Positions 19,049 to 43,293 are shown, counted from the stretch's first letter. The stretch: DNA of 64,000 nucleotides from an archaeon (GCA_020053355.1 JAGVNI010000008.1:77195-141194); one strand, 5' to 3'. Notes: generated by a model not told the origin, from the sequence alone. Numbers and translations: made by a program.

Positions 19049-19384
19049 TCAATCATTTTTTTTTACTTCAGGCAGTCTCTTCCCTTCAGCCTGGGCGAGG
19101 AAGCGGTCCGCCTCGTCCTGGCCTATCATCTCGCCCAACTGGTGCGCCTCGACAATCCGCATGGGTGCGCCAATCTGGTCGGAAAGCTCCCATTCGGATG
19201 TGACTCTGCCCAGGGCCGGATCCGGGAGCCTGGTGAAGTTTGTCGAGAGCATGGATGACCGCGTGTCTGCTGATTCGGTGATTGCGGAGACGAGCGACGC
19301 TTTTCCAGCGAACCCCCTGGAGCCGTTAATCCTGCCGGGTTTCTGCGTTTCGGCCGGTTTTTGCTTTTCCTGATGATTTGCCAT
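19049..19384 (-). CDS. hypothetical protein
   Basis: An intact 111-aa ORF directly preceding the zinc-ribbon gene. A TATA-like box and a GAGGAAT Shine-Dalgarno sequence lie upstream on the minus strand. Confidence 0.35.
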   Translation of the reverse strand: MANHQEKQKPAETQKPGRINGSRGFAGKASLVSAITESADTRSSMLSTNFTRLPDPALGRVTSEWELSDQIGAPMRIVEAHQLGEMIGQDEADRFLAQAEGKRLPEVKKND

Positions 19385-19558
19385 AGCGATTCCTCTGACT
19401 CAATAGGATATGTTATGGTGAAAAATGTTTATAAAGGGATACAAAAGAGCGGATTTAAGCGAAAGGAATGGCGAGCCCCGCAGGGCGGGCGAATGAGAAA
19501 AAAACGCTAGGAGCTTGGCTATAATGCCAAGTCCAGCATTTTTCTTCGAAAATCGCTA

Positions 19559-19598
19559 GGGGGGCTTCCATGATCGGTGTTCCGATCATGTGCCCCCA
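19559..19598 (+). repeat. two-stem hairpin element, copy A (outer GGGGGC/GCCCCC, inner CATGATCGG-tgtt-CCGATCATG)
   Basis: A perfect 9-bp inner stem is flanked by a 6-bp G:C outer stem. The 5' side is part of the CGCTAGGGGGG motif. Confidence 0.6.
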
Positions 19599-19610
19599 TT
19601 CAACCGGTTC

Positions 19611-19716
19611 GTTGTTCGTTTGTTCACGCCGAGCGTCAAGCGCGATGTCAAGGTCGACGAATCGACCTTGAGCATGTTCGCGAACGGAATGCCGTTCGCG
19701 ACAGGCCAGTGAACAA
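19611..19716 (+). repeat. compound palindromic element bounded by 8-bp inverted repeats (TTGTTCAC ... GTGAACAA), containing hairpin copy C and further palindromes
   Basis: Inverted repeats lie at 19620-19627 and 19709-19716. Hairpin C is CAAGGTCGA-cgaa-TCGACCTTG (19649-19670). A self-complementary GTTCGCGAAC and a CGAACGG/CCGTTCG pair are also present. Confidence 0.5.
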
Positions 19717-20016
19717 AAAACGCTAGGGGGGAACGTTAAAATTAGCGGGCAACGCTGCTCTGATTTTTTTCAATCTCACACTCATTACAGGGATCAGGAG
19801 TTCAGATCTCCTTGTCGGCGAATTGCTTTTTCAATTGAAAGACGAAAGCTAGGGCCAGCAGGCCATGTATCCTTGCCTGCCCACTCTAAATTGCTAAGCC
19901 GCAGGGCATCAGAAGCCCGTCTTGCGGGATTTTAGGCAAACATGGCGCCGATAACATTATTGTGGTTGTTTCTGTTATAATAAGTATTAAAAAGCCTAAC
20001 CCGAATATAATAATCA

Positions 20017-20574
20017 ATGAACGGGAAGATGAAACGCCCCAGTCCATCCCATCATTTGCCAGAGGGTAGTGTAAACTCTTGGCAATCACGGGAGCCCCTG
20101 AAGGAGTCTGAGCCAAAGCCGGGATTCCAAGACAGGGTAGAGGAACTTGCAAATCGCATTGCAGGGATCCGTTCTGATGGGAAGCGGAAGGTTCTAGTTT
20201 CGGTTTATGGGCTGCCTGATTCCGGAAAGTCCTATCTCATGGAAAAGGTCGCGGCGATTCTCAAGCAGTCTGGAATCATTACCGCTGTGCACAGCGGCGC
20301 AACGAGCAGAAGCGGAATAGAGCAGATAAAAAGCTTCGAGGAAGAGTACCCGCCCGAATGGAGCGCGCGTGTTTTCCTATTCCACTGCGCCTGGTTTCGC
20401 CAGGACAATTACCATCTTGACCCGAACGGCTTGGCTAGATCTGTGCTGGGGAGGGGTATTGACCTGAATATCCTGGTAACAAGGCATAGTGCAGCGGACA
20501 TGATGATGAATGAGGGGGATTATGACATGGTGATAGTCAATCCCGAAGCGCACAGGAAACAACCACTATTTTGA
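20017..20574 (+). CDS. small P-loop NTPase/kinase-like protein
   Basis: A Walker A motif VYGLPDSGKSY is present. It is the only ORF inside a low-GC, repeat-rich intergenic stretch. Confidence 0.45.
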   Translation: MNGKMKRPSPSHHLPEGSVNSWQSREPLKESEPKPGFQDRVEELANRIAGIRSDGKRKVLVSVYGLPDSGKSYLMEKVAAILKQSGIITAVHSGATSRSGIEQIKSFEEEYPPEWSARVFLFHCAWFRQDNYHLDPNGLARSVLGRGIDLNILVTRHSAADMMMNEGDYDMVIVNPEAHRKQPLF

Positions 20575-20782
20575 TCCGACACAATTTGGACGGCATAAGC
20601 TGATGAAATCAGCACTTACAGAAAGGCAATAGTTTTTTTAGCATCCAGACCCGAAAGTGCCTGAAACCTGATTCTGAATCGACCGATTTCTTCCCGTTAA
20701 GATGACAGTGGGAAGATAGAATATCGCAACCATTGATAGTGTTTGACGACTGCGTTAAGTCTAAGTATGTCAAAAAAAAGGA

Positions 20783-20920
20783 CGCTAGGGGGGAGATTTG
20801 AACTCCCGAACGCTTACGCGCAAAAGGTTTCCGCAACGCTTTTTATTGCCCGTTTTTAGGCGCTTTTTCCTAAAAAGCGCGATAGCAACCTTTCGCCCTA
20901 CCAGGCTAGGCGACCCCAGC
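20783..20920 (-). tRNA. tRNA-Ser (anticodon GCT) with an intron of about 54 nt in the anticodon loop
   Basis: Minus-strand reading is 5' GCTGGGG-TC-GCCT AGCCTGGT AGGC ... AAAGG TTGCTA[intron]A CCTTT, then TGCGCGTAAGCGTTC (long variable arm), then GGGAG TTCAAAT CTCCC, then CCCTAGC G 3'. The 7-bp acceptor stem has one G:U pair. The T-loop is TTCAAAT. A type II variable arm is consistent with Ser. An oligo-T follows. The gene is absent from the ORF track. Confidence 0.7.
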
Positions 20921-21049
20921 AGAAACTTTCTTTATATCCTCATGAGGGTAAAGTTTCATCAAACTTCCGGATGCATACTTCTGATGGGGTTTGATGGCCG
21001 GAAACTCCGGCCAGCAACTCCCCAGCGTGAAAACAGTTGTTTCACCTTA

Positions 21050-21093
21050 GCTGGGGGCACATGGTCGAATCGTCGACCATGAACGACCCCAGC
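21050..21093 (+). repeat. two-stem hairpin element, copy B (outer GCTGGGG/CCCCAGC, inner CATGGTCGA-atcg-TCGACCATG)
   Basis: Same architecture as copy A, with compensatory base changes in the inner stem. The outer stem mimics the tRNA-Ser acceptor stem. Confidence 0.6.
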
Positions 21094-21214
21094 GTGAATA
21101 GCAAAGTGTTCTTTTCCGGCGGAGAGTTTTAAAGTCAATCTTTCCGGGGCTGCCAGGTTAATAATATGAGTTACGAGTTGGAATCCGCTTAAGAAATGGG
21201 GGTTAGGTGCATTC

Positions 21215-22090
21215 ATGGCTGATGAGATAGATCCCGAGGAGATGCTCAGGTTCCAGGCGCAGCTGCTTTCCGAGCTTGAGAAGAGGGGATACCTCCTTAC
21301 AGGTTTCACTGAGATGGGCTTCGGCTTCGTATCAACTGAGACCGGTGAGAAAAACGAGATAAGGACATCGACATATTTCAAACTATACAAGTCAGGAAAG
21401 ACGATTTCCGAGATAATCGAGCAGATAACTTCCATTAAAAAAGAAACGAAAACTATCGAGAAGGAGGATATCGAGAAATTATTTCCTATCGTGAAAGACG
21501 CCGGTTTCATGATAAGCTATGAGAAAACCCTCGAGCGCATGCTCGGCCAGTTGCCGCCGGAACATCCGGCCATGCCCATACTTTTCAAGAACTGGAAGGA
21601 CCGCGAGGTTTACATATTGTGCGGCATGGACCTCGGGCACAGCTACAGATACTTGTCTTTGGGCGATTTGAAGAAGATGGGGTTGAGTCACCAGGAACTG
21701 TATGCAAAGATGATAGATAACCTCGTAAAAAAGACAGAGTCTGCAATTAAAGAAAAAAAGGTCAATCACCTCAAACAGGCAGCCGGGATTCACTCCCTCG
21801 CATTTCCAGATGACCTTAGCCCCTCCTTCGTGCTGATCGCCCATCGCTATTTCGATTACCTTGAGGAGGTAACGGGGATTATCGGTGCGGAATATTTCGT
21901 CGCGTTTGTAGTGACAACCGAGGAAATCCTGATTTGCGGCCCTAGCCTCCCTCCGGAGGCGCTCAAAATTGCATATGGGAAGGTCCTCGCAAGGCAGGAA
22001 GAGCTGAAAAACCAGCCACAAGTGCACAAGATAGTGAGTATAGAGCCAGTTATACTAACCAGGCAGGGAATGGCTTTCTTCAAGCATTAA
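21215..22090 (+). CDS. hypothetical protein
   Basis: An intact 291-aa ORF with no recognisable motif. Confidence 0.45.
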   Translation: MADEIDPEEMLRFQAQLLSELEKRGYLLTGFTEMGFGFVSTETGEKNEIRTSTYFKLYKSGKTISEIIEQITSIKKETKTIEKEDIEKLFPIVKDAGFMISYEKTLERMLGQLPPEHPAMPILFKNWKDREVYILCGMDLGHSYRYLSLGDLKKMGLSHQELYAKMIDNLVKKTESAIKEKKVNHLKQAAGIHSLAFPDDLSPSFVLIAHRYFDYLEEVTGIIGAEYFVAFVVTTEEILICGPSLPPEALKIAYGKVLARQEELKNQPQVHKIVSIEPVILTRQGMAFFKH

Positions 22091-43175: not shown

Positions 43176-43293
43176 GCAGGAGTAGCGAAGCGGTCAAACG
43201 CGGTGGACTTAAGAGCCGCCATTCCCGGACCGAATGCGGCATGGGAAATCCTCTGGCTCAGCGCCTTCGAAGGTTCGAATCCTTCCTCCTGCA
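43176..43293 (+). tRNA. tRNA-Leu (anticodon TAA) candidate with a roughly 34-nt intron
   Basis: A perfect 7-bp acceptor stem GCAGGAG/CTCCTGC with discriminator A. The T-arm is GAAGG-TTCGAAT-CCTTC. A 3-bp D-stem carries a GG-containing loop. The anticodon loop is CTTAAGA (G37), followed by an inserted 34 nt and a long variable arm. The anticodon stem has one U:U mismatch. The gene is not in the ORF track. Confidence 0.6.

What the first reader, a model, noticed from the sequence alone, without database searches (positions are those of the whole stretch)
19385..21214. Low-GC, repeat-dense 1.8-kb gap at an intron-containing tRNA-Ser, with four copies of the tRNA 3'-end motif, probably scars of integrated elements
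The ORF track shows only a 185-aa P-loop NTPase ORF in this interval. A minus-strand tRNA-Ser(GCT) lies at 20783..20920. Its 3' end, CCCCCCTAGCG followed by oligo-T (CGCTAGGGGGG on the plus strand), recurs three more times at 19505-19511 (partial), 19554-19564 and 19721-19731, all within 1.3 kb. All copies have the same orientation and an A/T run on the same side. Fragments resembling the tRNA 5' end (CCCCAGC..., CCCCAGCGTGAA twice at about 21028 and 21086) also recur. Archaeal integrases classically target tRNA genes and leave direct att repeats. Serial integration and excision produces arrays of att fragments. The sole coding gene here is AT-richer than the flanks. No integrase is present, so any element appears decayed.
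Basis: partly seen in the sequence, partly recalled or inferred. Interest (0 to 1): 0.55.

Follow-up and report, generated by a model that had tools for sequence, protein, structure and literature searches.

The report
Insertion scars and hairpins at tRNA-Ser
The repeated copies of a serine tRNA's last bases are real: one marks a 1-kb piece of foreign DNA inserted at the end of the gene, and the others belong to small DNA hairpins that pile up around tRNA genes in this group of tiny archaea.

Summary
CGCTAGGGGGG occurs 3 times in the 1.59-Mb genome, all within 1.24 kb here. A 7/11 partial copy lies nearby. The gene at 20783-20920(-) is an intron-containing tRNA-Ser(GCU).

The integration reading is partly supported. 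The copy at 19721-19731, with its flank, is the original end-of-gene junction. It was displaced by a 1,049-bp, low-GC insert carrying an orphan gene, bounded by a 13-bp direct repeat. Two sister Micrarchaeota genomes have the empty site. An integrase-bearing island at tRNA-Leu in the same genome uses the same tRNA sublocation and repeat length. A same-genus genome has an integrase 48 bp behind this tRNA.

The other copies and the 5'-end fragments are not simple scars. They are outer stems of small hairpin modules, in which the tRNA's own end is paired with its complement. These modules co-vary with each species' tRNA, show compensatory changes, and form 67-nt arrays. About a quarter of this genome's tRNAs carry own-end copies.

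The mechanism of the modules is unproven, and no RNA data exist. This scan met the same phenomenon before, on other Micrarchaeota DNA and on another piece of this genome.

The parts
20783..20920 (-). tRNA-Ser(GCU) gene, 138 nt. 5' exon 20920..20883, 54-nt intron 20882..20829 at position 37/38, 3' exon 20828..20783.
   Evidence: Rfam tRNA 37.9 bits over model positions 1-71. The exons are contiguous in intron-less orthologues, which ARAGORN calls Ser(gct) in 4 of 4 loci. Fold. The relaxed bulge-helix-bulge reading was done by hand from the sequence.
20772..20779 (-). T8 run (A8 on the + strand) three bases after the tRNA's discriminator; probable terminator supplied by the insert.
   Evidence: Sequence. 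That it acts as a terminator is inferred from the known role of oligo-T in archaeal termination (established knowledge).
20782..20794 (-). Direct repeat copy 1 (13 bp, ACGCTAGGGGGGA on +): the tRNA's last 11 nt plus one base on each side.
   Evidence: (family D1, start-to-start spacing 1062).
19733..20781 (.). 1,049-bp lineage-specific insert between the two 13-bp repeats; GC 47.3%.
   Evidence: Empty site in L043 and L065. The junction alignment with a same-genus genome begins at the repeat. GC is at the 1.5th percentile. Relatives show no DNA match to it except the tRNA-like fragment and one weak hit. Pieces at about 100% identity occur in contigs of 3 metagenome runs, and one contig at about 95% identity spans the insert-tRNA junction.
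20017..20574 (+). 185-aa orphan ORF with a Walker-A-like GLPDSGKS motif, antisense to the tRNA; cargo of the insert.
   Evidence: Pfam hits are all sub-threshold. 0 of 40 relatives have it. Only itself was found in the 5.8-billion protein set. No phage or PHROG match. The Atlas gives leads to small P-loop kinases at scores under 0.9 only.
19791..19831 (+). Fragment resembling the 3' end (T-arm to discriminator and flank) of another tRNA-Ser (GGA type), inverted relative to tRNA-Ser(GCU), inside the insert.
   Evidence: 88% identity over 41 nt to the 3' end of the genome's own tRNA on contig C17 (35019-35155), and 93% over 30 nt in a relative. Inverted repeat I3 with the tRNA T-arm.
19720..19732 (-). 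Direct repeat copy 2 (13 bp): the displaced original end of the tRNA gene. No complementary arm upstream.
   Evidence: Its upstream context does not fold better than shuffles (z -1.5; 16 of 200 shuffles fold as well).
19619..19720 (-). Conserved tRNA 3'-flank element TTTTTTGTTCAC...GTGAACAAA (a long stem), the ancestral flank of this tRNA.
   Evidence: It directly follows the tRNA in L013, L043, L064 and L065, and also follows tRNA-Gly(GCC) in this genome. Fold z -5.9.
19642..19704 (.). Double perfect-hairpin cassette (10-bp stems at 19648-19671 and 19678-19701) inserted into the flank element; member of a multi-copy family.
   Evidence: the repeat finder I12 and I13. Many copies occur across the genus and 2-3 more in this genome. 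It is absent from the homologous element of L065 and L013.
19554..19598 (-). 3' hairpin module: GGGGGC / inner 9-bp hairpin / GCCCCCC, ending in the exact 11-nt tRNA end, followed by ATTTT.
   Evidence: Fold -27.5 kcal/mol, z -6.1. Orthologous modules occur in three same-genus genomes and in L048, L059, L065 and L066. 15 consensus pairs, 5 with compensatory changes, in a 4-sequence alignment.
19505..19537 (-). Older or degenerate 3' module: GCTGGA-hairpin-TCCTAGCG plus a T7 run (the 'partial' copy).
   Evidence: Fold z -4.9. The 24-nt repeat D3 shows that the copy includes the T-run and flank.
21050..21093 (-). 5' hairpin module A: a copy of the tRNA's first 10 nt (GCTGGGGTCG) + 9-bp inner hairpin + CCCCAGC, preceded by the leader TTCAC.
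   Evidence: (D10, D15, I1). Fold -30.5 kcal/mol, z -6.9. Nearly identical to two tandem units in front of the tRNA in L065.
21027..21049 (-). Linker TAAG + small hairpin GTGAAA..TTTCAC, ending in the leader TTTTCAC that abuts the tRNA 5' end in relatives.
   Evidence: (L015, L019, L028, L043, L065), and also in front of tRNA-Leu in this genome.
20982..21026 (-). 5' hairpin module B: GCTGGGG + GGCCGGA hairpin + CCCCATC (imperfect). Start-to-start spacing to module A is 67 nt.
   Evidence: I7, D10; z -4.1. A homologous unit is in L065 and L043.
20921..20981 (-). Promoter-like segment (GGAAGTTTGATGAAACTTTA... GGATATAAAG) between module B and the tRNA. In relatives with 5' modules the leader TTTTCAC stands here instead.
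   Evidence: The same element lies upstream of this tRNA in four same-genus genomes and upstream of other tRNAs. Promoter function is inferred.

Best explanation
The interval is the insertion-prone neighbourhood of an essential, intron-containing tRNA-Ser(GCU) gene in a Micrarchaeota archaeon. Two layers are superimposed.

(1) A 1,049-bp, low-GC segment with an orphan P-loop ORF was inserted exactly at the 3' end of the tRNA gene. The insert regenerated the last 11 nt of the tRNA and supplied a new T8 terminator. The old end, with its conserved flank, was pushed 1,062 bp downstream, leaving a 13-bp direct repeat. The most likely agent is a tyrosine integrase of the 400-440-aa family that targets the last 11-13 nt of tRNA genes in this genus. 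It would have acted in trans or been lost since, because the insert has no integrase.

(2) The remaining copies of the tRNA's 3' end, and the copies of its 5' end, are outer stems of 40-50-nt hairpin modules. Each module has a copy of the tRNA's own terminal 7-17 nt, a perfect inner hairpin of a genome-wide family, and an arm complementary to the copy. These modules arise and turn over at the DNA level. This happens by repeated short insertions or duplications at the two gene ends, by unequal exchange between the repeated cores (giving 67-nt tandem arrays), and probably by palindrome extension. Older copies are displaced outward and decay.

Shown: the repeats, the empty sites, the foreign composition, the hairpins and their co-variation, the genome-wide pattern, and the integrases at the same sublocation.

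Inferred: that an integrase made this insertion, how the modules are made, and that they are by-products rather than functional RNAs.
For: The motif is unique to this locus: 3 of 3 genomic copies lie here.

Insertion. Identity with a same-genus tRNA plus flank begins exactly at the repeat. L043 (tRNA 94% identical over 138 nt, including the intron) and L065 (aIF2-gamma DNA 89% identical) have the tRNA directly joined to (A/T)TTTTTGTTCACTGGCC. Insert GC is 47.3% against 56.5%, the 1.5th percentile. The ORF was not found in 40 of 40 relatives and has no relative in the large protein set. The region between CopA and the tRNA varies across 18 relatives, with one compact site of CopA-25 bp-tRNA-88 bp-aIF2-gamma.

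Integrases. The genome's only PF00589 hit (75.7 bits) lies about 70 bp after tRNA-Leu(CAG). That tRNA's last 11-13 nt recur 4.9, 6.2 and 17.2 kb downstream. A 441-aa integrase (49.4 bits) lies 48 bp after tRNA-Ser(GCU) in a same-genus genome. The family is present in 22 of 40 genus genomes.

Modules. The extra copy matches each genome's own tRNA end (three different end sequences) in 7 of 18 relatives and in 7 of 24 loci of named Micrarchaeota MAGs (the two sets overlap). In 4 orthologous modules there are 15 consensus pairs, 5 of them compensatory. Fold z-scores are -4 to -7. Own 3' 11-mers lie downstream of 7 of 28 tRNAs (10 copies), against 2 hits in 708 cross-pairs. Own 5' 10-mers lie upstream of 7 of 28 (9 copies), against 25 in 708.

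The repeats extend into non-tRNA flank (leader TTCAC; T-run and GTTCAC), which argues for DNA-level copying.

There are 168 perfect hairpins against 29-33 in shuffles, and 42 of the 168 lie within 600 nt of a predicted tRNA, which covers 2.5% of the genome.
Against: There is no integrase or other recombinase in the insert. The repeat is only 13 bp. The insert has no recognisable element genes and no relatives in phage or viral family libraries.

Three genomes that carry modules gave no hit with the integrase query. They are 79-88% complete, so this is weak evidence.

The complementary arms, the conserved internal loop (A opposite GAA) in orthologous modules and the compensatory changes are what a selected RNA or folded-DNA structure would also show. 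The repeats bounding the large tRNA-Leu island have no such arms.

Duplications of tRNA 5' ends are not what tRNA-targeting tyrosine integrases usually leave.

No strain with an empty site at near-identity was found. The polarity (insertion rather than deletion) therefore rests on species-level comparison.
Confidence: 0.58

Rival explanations
1. The hairpin modules are functional small RNAs. They would be acceptor-stem mimics ('minihelices') co-transcribed with the tRNA, cut out by RNase P and tRNase Z, and perhaps CCA-tailed or charged. Alternatively they would be self-sequestering leader/trailer structures selected so that duplicated ends do not mispair with the tRNA.
For: Module A and the module of one same-genus genome form a 7-bp stem identical or near-identical to the tRNA's acceptor stem, with a free discriminator. 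In several relatives no T-run separates the tRNA from the first 3' module and the T-run follows the module. 5' modules sit between a promoter-like element and the tRNA, each behind the same leader TTTTCAC. There are compensatory changes and a conserved internal loop. Copies within about 250 nt of the tRNA have arms, whereas the copy 1 kb away behind a terminator has none.
Against: In 5' modules the 3' arm is the perfect complement of the 5' copy, not a copy of the tRNA's real 3' strand, and the reverse holds in 3' modules. In some modules the discriminator is paired or only 6 bp form. The repeats include non-tRNA flank. Stems are mostly perfect, and single mismatches show no G-U excess: 29 GT, 24 AC and 79 other genome-wide. 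Modules are missing from most relatives and vary in number. In this window the 3' modules lie beyond a T8 run and 1 kb of antisense ORF.
Confidence: 0.17
2. All copies are plain decayed attachment-site scars of successive large integrated elements whose bodies were deleted.
For: There are integrase-bearing islands with 11-13-bp repeats of the tRNA end in this genome, and an integrase behind this tRNA in a relative. Copies grow more degenerate with distance from the tRNA. An insertion with empty sites is proven for one copy.
Against: This does not predict the complementary arm and conserved hairpin directly beside each small copy. It also does not predict the tandem 67-nt arrays of 5'-end copies, or identical tandem units in L065. 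Intervals between copies are as short as 45-170 bp.
Confidence: 0.12
3. The modules are miniature cassettes of a dedicated recombination system that uses folded hairpin sites (core paired with inverse core), in the manner of integron attC sites or the folded att site of a single-stranded phage, with the tRNA end as the chromosomal site.
For: The architecture is conserved ends (inverse core ... core), a variable middle, stacking in arrays at one site, and a conserved linker AACG(A/T)AGTGA in three genomes. The core equals the sublocation used by the genus's integrases.
Against: No integrase lies beside the arrays. The only PF00589 protein of this genome is at tRNA-Leu. No Y1/HUH transposase was found. 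There is no experimental or population evidence for cassette movement. The 1-kb insert has no hairpin at its distal end.
Confidence: 0.1
4. The motif is a generic regulatory or terminator signal, or part of additional tRNA genes.
For: Each copy is followed by an oligo-T run.
Against: The motif occurs nowhere else in the genome. It changes with the tRNA's own sequence between species. No further tRNA was found in 19300-21300 at E up to 1.
Confidence: 0.02

Closest known systems
Genomic islands and integrative elements inserted in tRNA genes by tyrosine integrases (as defined for the Islander database, PMC4383910; abstract seen in the listing)
   Same: A regenerated, intact tRNA at one end. A displaced fragment of the tRNA's 3' end in direct orientation at the other end. 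Foreign composition. An empty site in relatives. Stacking of several copies at one tRNA.
   Different: No integrase in the 1-kb insert, and only 13 bp of identity. The other copies are embedded in hairpins with a complementary arm. Copies of the 5' end also occur upstream.
tRNA-Thr fragment 1.8 kb from an intron-containing tRNA-Thr in Caldiarchaeum subterraneum, separated by a recombinase-encoding insertion (PMC3293823; abstract read)
   Same: An archaeal tRNA, a displaced tRNA fragment, a kilobase-scale insertion between the fragment and the gene, and a proposed link between mobile DNA and tRNA gene disruption.
   Different: There the fragment is a 5' piece and the insertion encodes a recombinase. 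Here it is a 3' end of 11-13 nt, there is no recombinase, and hairpin modules are present as well.
REP/BIME-type dispersed hairpin repeats of bacteria with their RAYT transposases (recalled, not from a call)
   Same: Short, perfect or near-perfect palindromes in many copies, clustered in intergenic DNA.
   Different: No Y1/RAYT-type transposase was found. The modules here carry a copy of the neighbouring tRNA's own end. The same hairpin families also sit inside tRNA introns.
Integron attC sites and the folded hairpin attachment site of phage CTX (recalled, not from a call)
   Same: A recombination core paired with its inverse copy across a variable middle; units stacked at one chromosomal site.
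   Different: No integron-type integrase lies beside the array. The units are mostly gene-free and 45-70 nt long. There is no evidence of single-strand recombination.
The repeats behind the E. coli tyrT tRNA-Tyr gene, which begin with the tRNA's 3'-terminal bases (recalled, not from a call)
   Same: Copies of a tRNA's 3' end repeated directly downstream of the gene.
   Different: That is a bacterial locus with 178-bp units, no complementary arm, and a single locus rather than a genome-wide pattern.
Highly disrupted tRNA genes of Micrarchaeota (ARMAN-2) and their broad-specificity splicing endonuclease (PMC3239211; passages read)
   Same: The same phylum, and many introns at canonical and non-canonical positions. 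The intron here is at 37/38 with a relaxed motif.
   Different: The passages shown by the four-term search concern introns only, and the terms 'leader' and 'repeat' occurred 0 times in that paper.

Membership tests
tRNA-gene genomic island / integrative element (tyrosine integrase) | Intact (regenerated) tRNA gene at one end of the insert | tested here: met
   Rfam tRNA 37.9 bits over the full model. The exons match intron-less Ser(gct) orthologues.
tRNA-gene genomic island / integrative element (tyrosine integrase) | Displaced fragment of the tRNA end, in direct orientation, at the other end | tested here: met
   13-bp exact repeat at 19720-19732 and 20782-20794. Its flank is the ancestral tRNA flank.
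tRNA-gene genomic island / integrative element (tyrosine integrase) | Integrase gene inside the island | tested here: not met
   Pfam found no recombinase in the insert's ORF. The genome's only PF00589 hit is at tRNA-Leu, outside the window.
tRNA-gene genomic island / integrative element (tyrosine integrase) | Empty site in related genomes; foreign composition | tested here: met
   L043 and L065 have the tRNA directly joined to the flank. GC is at the 1.5th percentile. The ORF is in 0 of 40 relatives.
REP/MITE-like dispersed hairpin repeats | Multi-copy short palindromes in intergenic DNA | tested here: met
   168 perfect hairpins against 29-33 in shuffles. The double-hairpin unit recurs in this genome and across the genus.
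REP/MITE-like dispersed hairpin repeats | Cognate HUH (Y1/RAYT) transposase in the genome | tested here: not met
   PF01797: 0 hits in the 90%-complete genome.
Integron (IntI + attC cassette array) | Integron integrase adjacent to the array | tested here: not met
   The only PF00589 protein lies about 44 kb away beside tRNA-Leu. It was not examined for the IntI-specific insertion.
Integron (IntI + attC cassette array) | Hairpin sites with inverse core and core bounding each cassette | tested here: inconclusive
   The modules have a core and an inverse core around a variable middle. The attC-specific boxes and extrahelical bases were not tested.
Additional tRNA genes | Cloverleaf recognised by a tRNA model | tested here: not met
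   Only one tRNA was found in 19300-21300 at E up to 1. ARAGORN with introns finds none besides it.
tRNA-like minihelix RNA | 7-bp acceptor-like stem with unpaired discriminator | tested here: inconclusive
   Met by 5' module A and by one relative's 3' module. Not met by the window's 3' module, which has a 6-bp stem with TAGCG unpaired, nor by a relative's module whose discriminator is paired.
tRNA-like minihelix RNA | Expressed and processed as a discrete RNA | not testable with these tools
   No RNA run holds the stretch.
Archaeal bulge-helix-bulge tRNA intron | Intervening sequence at 37/38 whose removal gives the orthologous mature sequence | tested here: met
   The exons are contiguous in 14 of 18 relatives' genes. 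The relaxed motif (4-bp helix UUGC/GCGG between bulges) was read by hand and is not the minimum-free-energy fold.

The most novel reading that the evidence does not exclude
Micrarchaeota tRNA genes may be served by an undescribed system that builds arrays of 45-70-nt hairpin units at both gene ends. Each unit carries a copy of the tRNA's own terminal bases paired to its complement. There are two versions of this reading. In one, the units are a cassette-type recombination site that uses folded hairpin substrates and the tRNA end as its chromosomal target. In the other, the units are acceptor-stem mimic RNAs released by the tRNA-processing enzymes, which would be a new class of tRNA-linked small RNA. 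The 1-kb insert here would then be one larger cassette captured by the same machinery.
Probability: 0.2. Interest if true: 0.8.

Novelty: new variant of a known kind. Interest (0 to 1): 0.45.

Why it matters
The locus gives a clean example of how the ends of an essential tRNA gene act as a landing pad in a reduced symbiotic archaeon. There is a filled site here and empty sites in sister genomes.

It also ties that familiar process to an unfamiliar one. Small hairpin modules copy the tRNA's own ends and form arrays. Their hairpin families also occur inside tRNA introns.

If the modules prove to be mobile cassettes or processed RNAs, they would bear on three questions: how archaeal tRNA genes acquire introns and fragments, how integrases choose tRNA sublocations, and what pre-tRNA transcripts look like in DPANN archaea.

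For annotation, the locus shows that standard tRNA finders miss or mis-call such genes.

Tried and rejected
RNA evidence. No RNA holder was listed for the stretch, so expression of the modules could not be examined.

Laying contigs of 4 DNA runs. Pieces of the insert were found at about 100% identity in three runs. One contig at about 95% identity spans the insert-tRNA junction. No contig bridged an empty site. The single joint 19668->20790 (one contig, 20 nt on the short side) is too weak and probably comes from a relative.

Two exact-pattern scans of metagenome contigs, for the tRNA-end/flank junction and for the displaced junction, found 0 loci each.

The global MAFFT alignment of the window against L065 and L043 misplaced the large gap and was discarded in favour of the BLAST segments.

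A strand test for G-U against A-C mismatches in one-mismatch hairpins near tRNAs had only 5 cases and is uninformative.

The second end of the integrase element behind tRNA-Ser in the same-genus genome could not be found. The contig ends 3.5 kb away, and the only 9-mer hits are at chance level.

The multiple alignment of nine 3' modules did not keep the inner hairpins in register, so pair counts were made only on the four orthologous modules.

Phage tblastn, PHROGs and Pfam gave nothing above threshold for the 185-aa ORF. The Atlas hits (scores under 0.9) are leads only.

Rejected readings: split or permuted tRNA halves, because the gene is complete and contiguous apart from one intron; and a K-turn in the conserved internal loop, because the loop sizes do not fit (judged by hand).

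Literature searches listed no paper describing own-end hairpin modules at Micrarchaeota tRNA genes. Subscription journals are not covered.
Full report
OBSERVATION. The sequence shows CGCTAGGGGGG on the + strand at 19554-19564, 19721-19731 and 20783-20793. A 7-of-11 partial copy lies at 19505-19511. All are in one orientation and each is preceded on the + strand by an A-run. The repeat finder groups them as one family (D1) and also reports CCCCAGCGTGAA at 21020 and 21087 (D10). In the whole 1.59-Mb, 20-contig genome the 11-mer occurs 3 times and the 12-mer twice, all here. In the window, 5 matches at up to 1 mismatch compare with a mean of 1.35 in shuffles, and only the three local ones are exact. 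The interval has 48.4% GC against a genome mean of 56.5% (1.6th percentile).

THE tRNA. Default ARAGORN and Rfam at gathering thresholds miss the gene. Rfam with permissive filters finds tRNA at 20783-20920(-), 37.9 bits over the full model, and nothing else in 19300-21300. ARAGORN with introns finds it but calls the anticodon GGA. That call is wrong. In relatives the two exons are contiguous, 14 of 18 orthologous genes are 83-85 nt long, and 4 of 4 tested are called Ser(gct). The 54-nt intron therefore sits at 37/38. By hand it gives a relaxed bulge-helix-bulge motif, which is not the minimum-free-energy fold. Record titles of 24 loci that share the tRNA's last 21 nt name Candidatus Micrarchaeota. 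That phylum is known for heavily interrupted tRNA genes and a broad-specificity splicing endonuclease (PMC3239211, passages read).

ONE COPY IS THE FAR END OF AN INSERTION. Synteny S6e - aIF2-gamma - (orf291) - tRNA-Ser(GCU) - variable - CopA holds in the relatives' loci laid, wherever a locus reaches those genes. One relative has CopA-25 bp-tRNA-88 bp-aIF2-gamma. The copy at 19721-19731 is followed on the tRNA strand by TTTTTTGTTCAC...GTGAACAAA. The same element directly follows the tRNA in several relatives. In a pairwise alignment, identity starts exactly at TCCCCCCTAGCG.

Two closer genomes supply the empty site. L043 has a tRNA 94% identical over all 138 nt, including the intron. L065 has aIF2-gamma DNA 89% identical. 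Both have the tRNA joined directly to (A/T)TTTTTGTTCACTGGCC. The two repeat copies are 13 bp long (19720-19732 and 20782-20794) and bound 1,049 bp of 47.3% GC (1.5th percentile). The upstream context of the distal copy does not fold better than shuffles (z -1.5).

The only sizeable ORF has 185 aa and a Walker-A-like motif. It has only sub-threshold Pfam hits, no match in 40 of 40 relatives, no relative among 5.8 billion proteins, and none in phage records or PHROGs. The Atlas gives leads to small P-loop kinases only. The insert also holds an inverted fragment of another tRNA-Ser's 3' end. Contigs of three metagenome runs hold pieces of the insert at about 100% identity, and one contig at about 95% identity spans the insert-tRNA junction. 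The insertion is therefore present in independent samples rather than an assembly artefact.

INTEGRASES USE THIS SUBLOCATION. The genome's only PF00589 protein (417 aa, 75.7 bits) lies about 70 bp behind tRNA-Leu(CAG), just beyond the window. That tRNA's last 11-13 nt recur 4.9, 6.2 and 17.2 kb downstream. This is the same part of the tRNA and the same repeat length as here. In a same-genus genome a 441-aa integrase (49.4 bits) starts 48 bp behind tRNA-Ser(GCU). The two proteins are 29% identical, and the family is in 22 of 40 genus genomes. This fits the standard definition of tRNA-gene islands (PMC4383910, abstract in the listing) except that the insert lacks an integrase. It also resembles the Caldiarchaeum case of a tRNA fragment separated from its gene by an insertion (PMC3293823, abstract).

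THE OTHER COPIES ARE HAIRPIN MODULES. The copy at 19554-19564 ends a 45-nt hairpin (GGGGGC / 9-bp inner stem / GCCCCCC, z -6.1). The partial copy ends a smaller hairpin (z -4.9). Upstream of the tRNA, two units spaced 67 nt apart each begin with TTCAC|GCTGGGG and fold with z -6.9 and -4.1.

In relatives, the tRNA is followed by a linker, an arm complementary to the tRNA's 3' end, a variable perfect hairpin, an exact copy of the tRNA's last 11 nt, and oligo-T. The copy is CCCCCCTAGCG, CCTCCCCGGCG or CCCCTCAGCG according to each genome's own tRNA. This holds in 7 of 18 relatives and in 7 of 24 named loci; the two sets overlap. Four orthologous modules share 15 pairs, 5 of them with compensatory changes, and share an internal loop of A opposite GAA.

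L065 and L043 carry 5 and 3 upstream units at a 67-nt period. Two units in L065 are identical to each other and nearly identical to the window's module A. The order of units and promoter segment differs between L065 and the window. This points to exchange between the repeated cores.

NOT SPECIAL TO THIS tRNA. In this genome, own 3' 11-mers (up to 1 mismatch) lie within 800 nt downstream of 7 of 28 tRNAs (10 copies), against 2 hits in 708 cross-pairs. Own 5' 10-mers lie upstream of 7 of 28 (9 copies), against 25 in 708 (examples). Three of the 31 ARAGORN predictions were dropped because no T-loop was found. This tRNA's own two exact 3' copies lie beyond the 800-nt limit and are not counted. Perfect hairpins (stem of 9 or more) number 168 against 29-33 in shuffles. 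A quarter of them lie within 600 nt of predicted tRNAs, which cover 2.5% of the genome. The same families fill tRNA introns that ARAGORN misses. The 63-nt double hairpin at 19642-19704 is one such multi-copy unit and is absent from the homologous flank element of L065.

HOW IT MOST LIKELY WORKS. The 1-kb insert is best read as a site-specific integration at the tRNA's last 11-13 nt, now without its integrase. For the modules I favour a DNA-level origin, for four reasons. First, the repeats run into non-tRNA flank (leader, T-run). Second, the second arm is the complement of the first rather than a copy of the tRNA's other strand. Third, the stems are mostly perfect with no G-U excess (weak evidence). 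Fourth, the units vary in number and order between close relatives.

How the units are made is not shown. Candidates are integrase-type cassette insertion, unequal exchange, and template-switch palindrome extension. No Y1/HUH transposase is present.

A functional-RNA reading stays open. Several modules mimic the acceptor stem, lie between promoter and terminator with the tRNA, and keep their structure through compensatory change. Copies close to the tRNA have arms, while the distant copy has none. No RNA data were available.

RELATION TO EARLIER NOTES OF THIS SCAN. The scan had already met hairpin arrays behind tRNA-Gly of this genome and similar things in other Micrarchaeota. My results agree with those notes. 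I checked the tRNA-Gly flank, the tRNA-Leu island and the hairpin excess myself.

VERDICT. The integration reading is right for one copy and incomplete for the others. The kind is known (tRNA-targeted insertion). The own-end hairpin modules are a variant that none of the papers listed by the searches describes.

Noticed in passing
G000:C15:142132-159385 (starts about 940 bp beyond the window's end); L030: tRNA-Leu(CAG) is followed by a 417-aa tyrosine integrase and three direct repeats of the tRNA's last 11-13 nt at +4.9, +6.2 and +17.2 kb. This is a stack of integrated elements. The 3' flank of tRNA-Leu(GAG) on contig C6 is homologous to the left end of this island but has no integrase.
   Followed up: partly
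window 43176-43293 (+): A second interrupted tRNA (Rfam 48.4 bits) with a roughly 47-nt insertion after the anticodon arm. ARAGORN with introns calls it Ser(tga) with a 34-nt intron.
   Followed up: no
window 20848-20883; G000 C13:60243-60277; C17:75454-75538; other tRNA introns: Introns of different tRNA genes share one hairpin family (GCGC/GGCG + T-run, 3-nt loop, A-run + GCGC). The same hairpins occur in clusters away from predicted tRNAs, which suggests that intron sequence moves between tRNA genes.
   Followed up: partly
L065, L043, L009, L015, L016, L019 against the window's tRNA: Intron turnover at position 37/38 of tRNA-Ser(GCU). The intron is absent in 14 of 18 relatives and is 57-132 nt long in others. 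L043 has the window's intron (about 94% identity over the gene). The close relative L065 has an unrelated intron at the same site.
   Followed up: partly
G000 C2:69177-69470: tRNA-Gly(UCC) is followed by two tandem copies of its 3' half, including the tail of its intron. That intron contains, in antisense, the GAAGTTTGATGAAACTTTA element that stands upstream of tRNA genes as a promoter-like box.
   Followed up: no
G000 C7:12860-13060 and C15:200360-200640: These are probable tRNA genes with several hairpin introns, including one in the D-loop region, that ARAGORN missed. The genome's 31 predicted tRNAs are therefore an undercount.
   Followed up: no
window 19959-19972 and 20556-20569: A 14-nt inverted repeat (93% complementary) brackets the 185-aa ORF, one arm 45 nt before its start and the other over its stop codon.
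   Followed up: no
window 21215-22090 (+): A 291-aa ORF of 47.7% GC lies between the tRNA and aIF2-gamma. It has no Pfam or PHROG family but is conserved at this position in 3 relatives at 33-47% identity.
   Followed up: no
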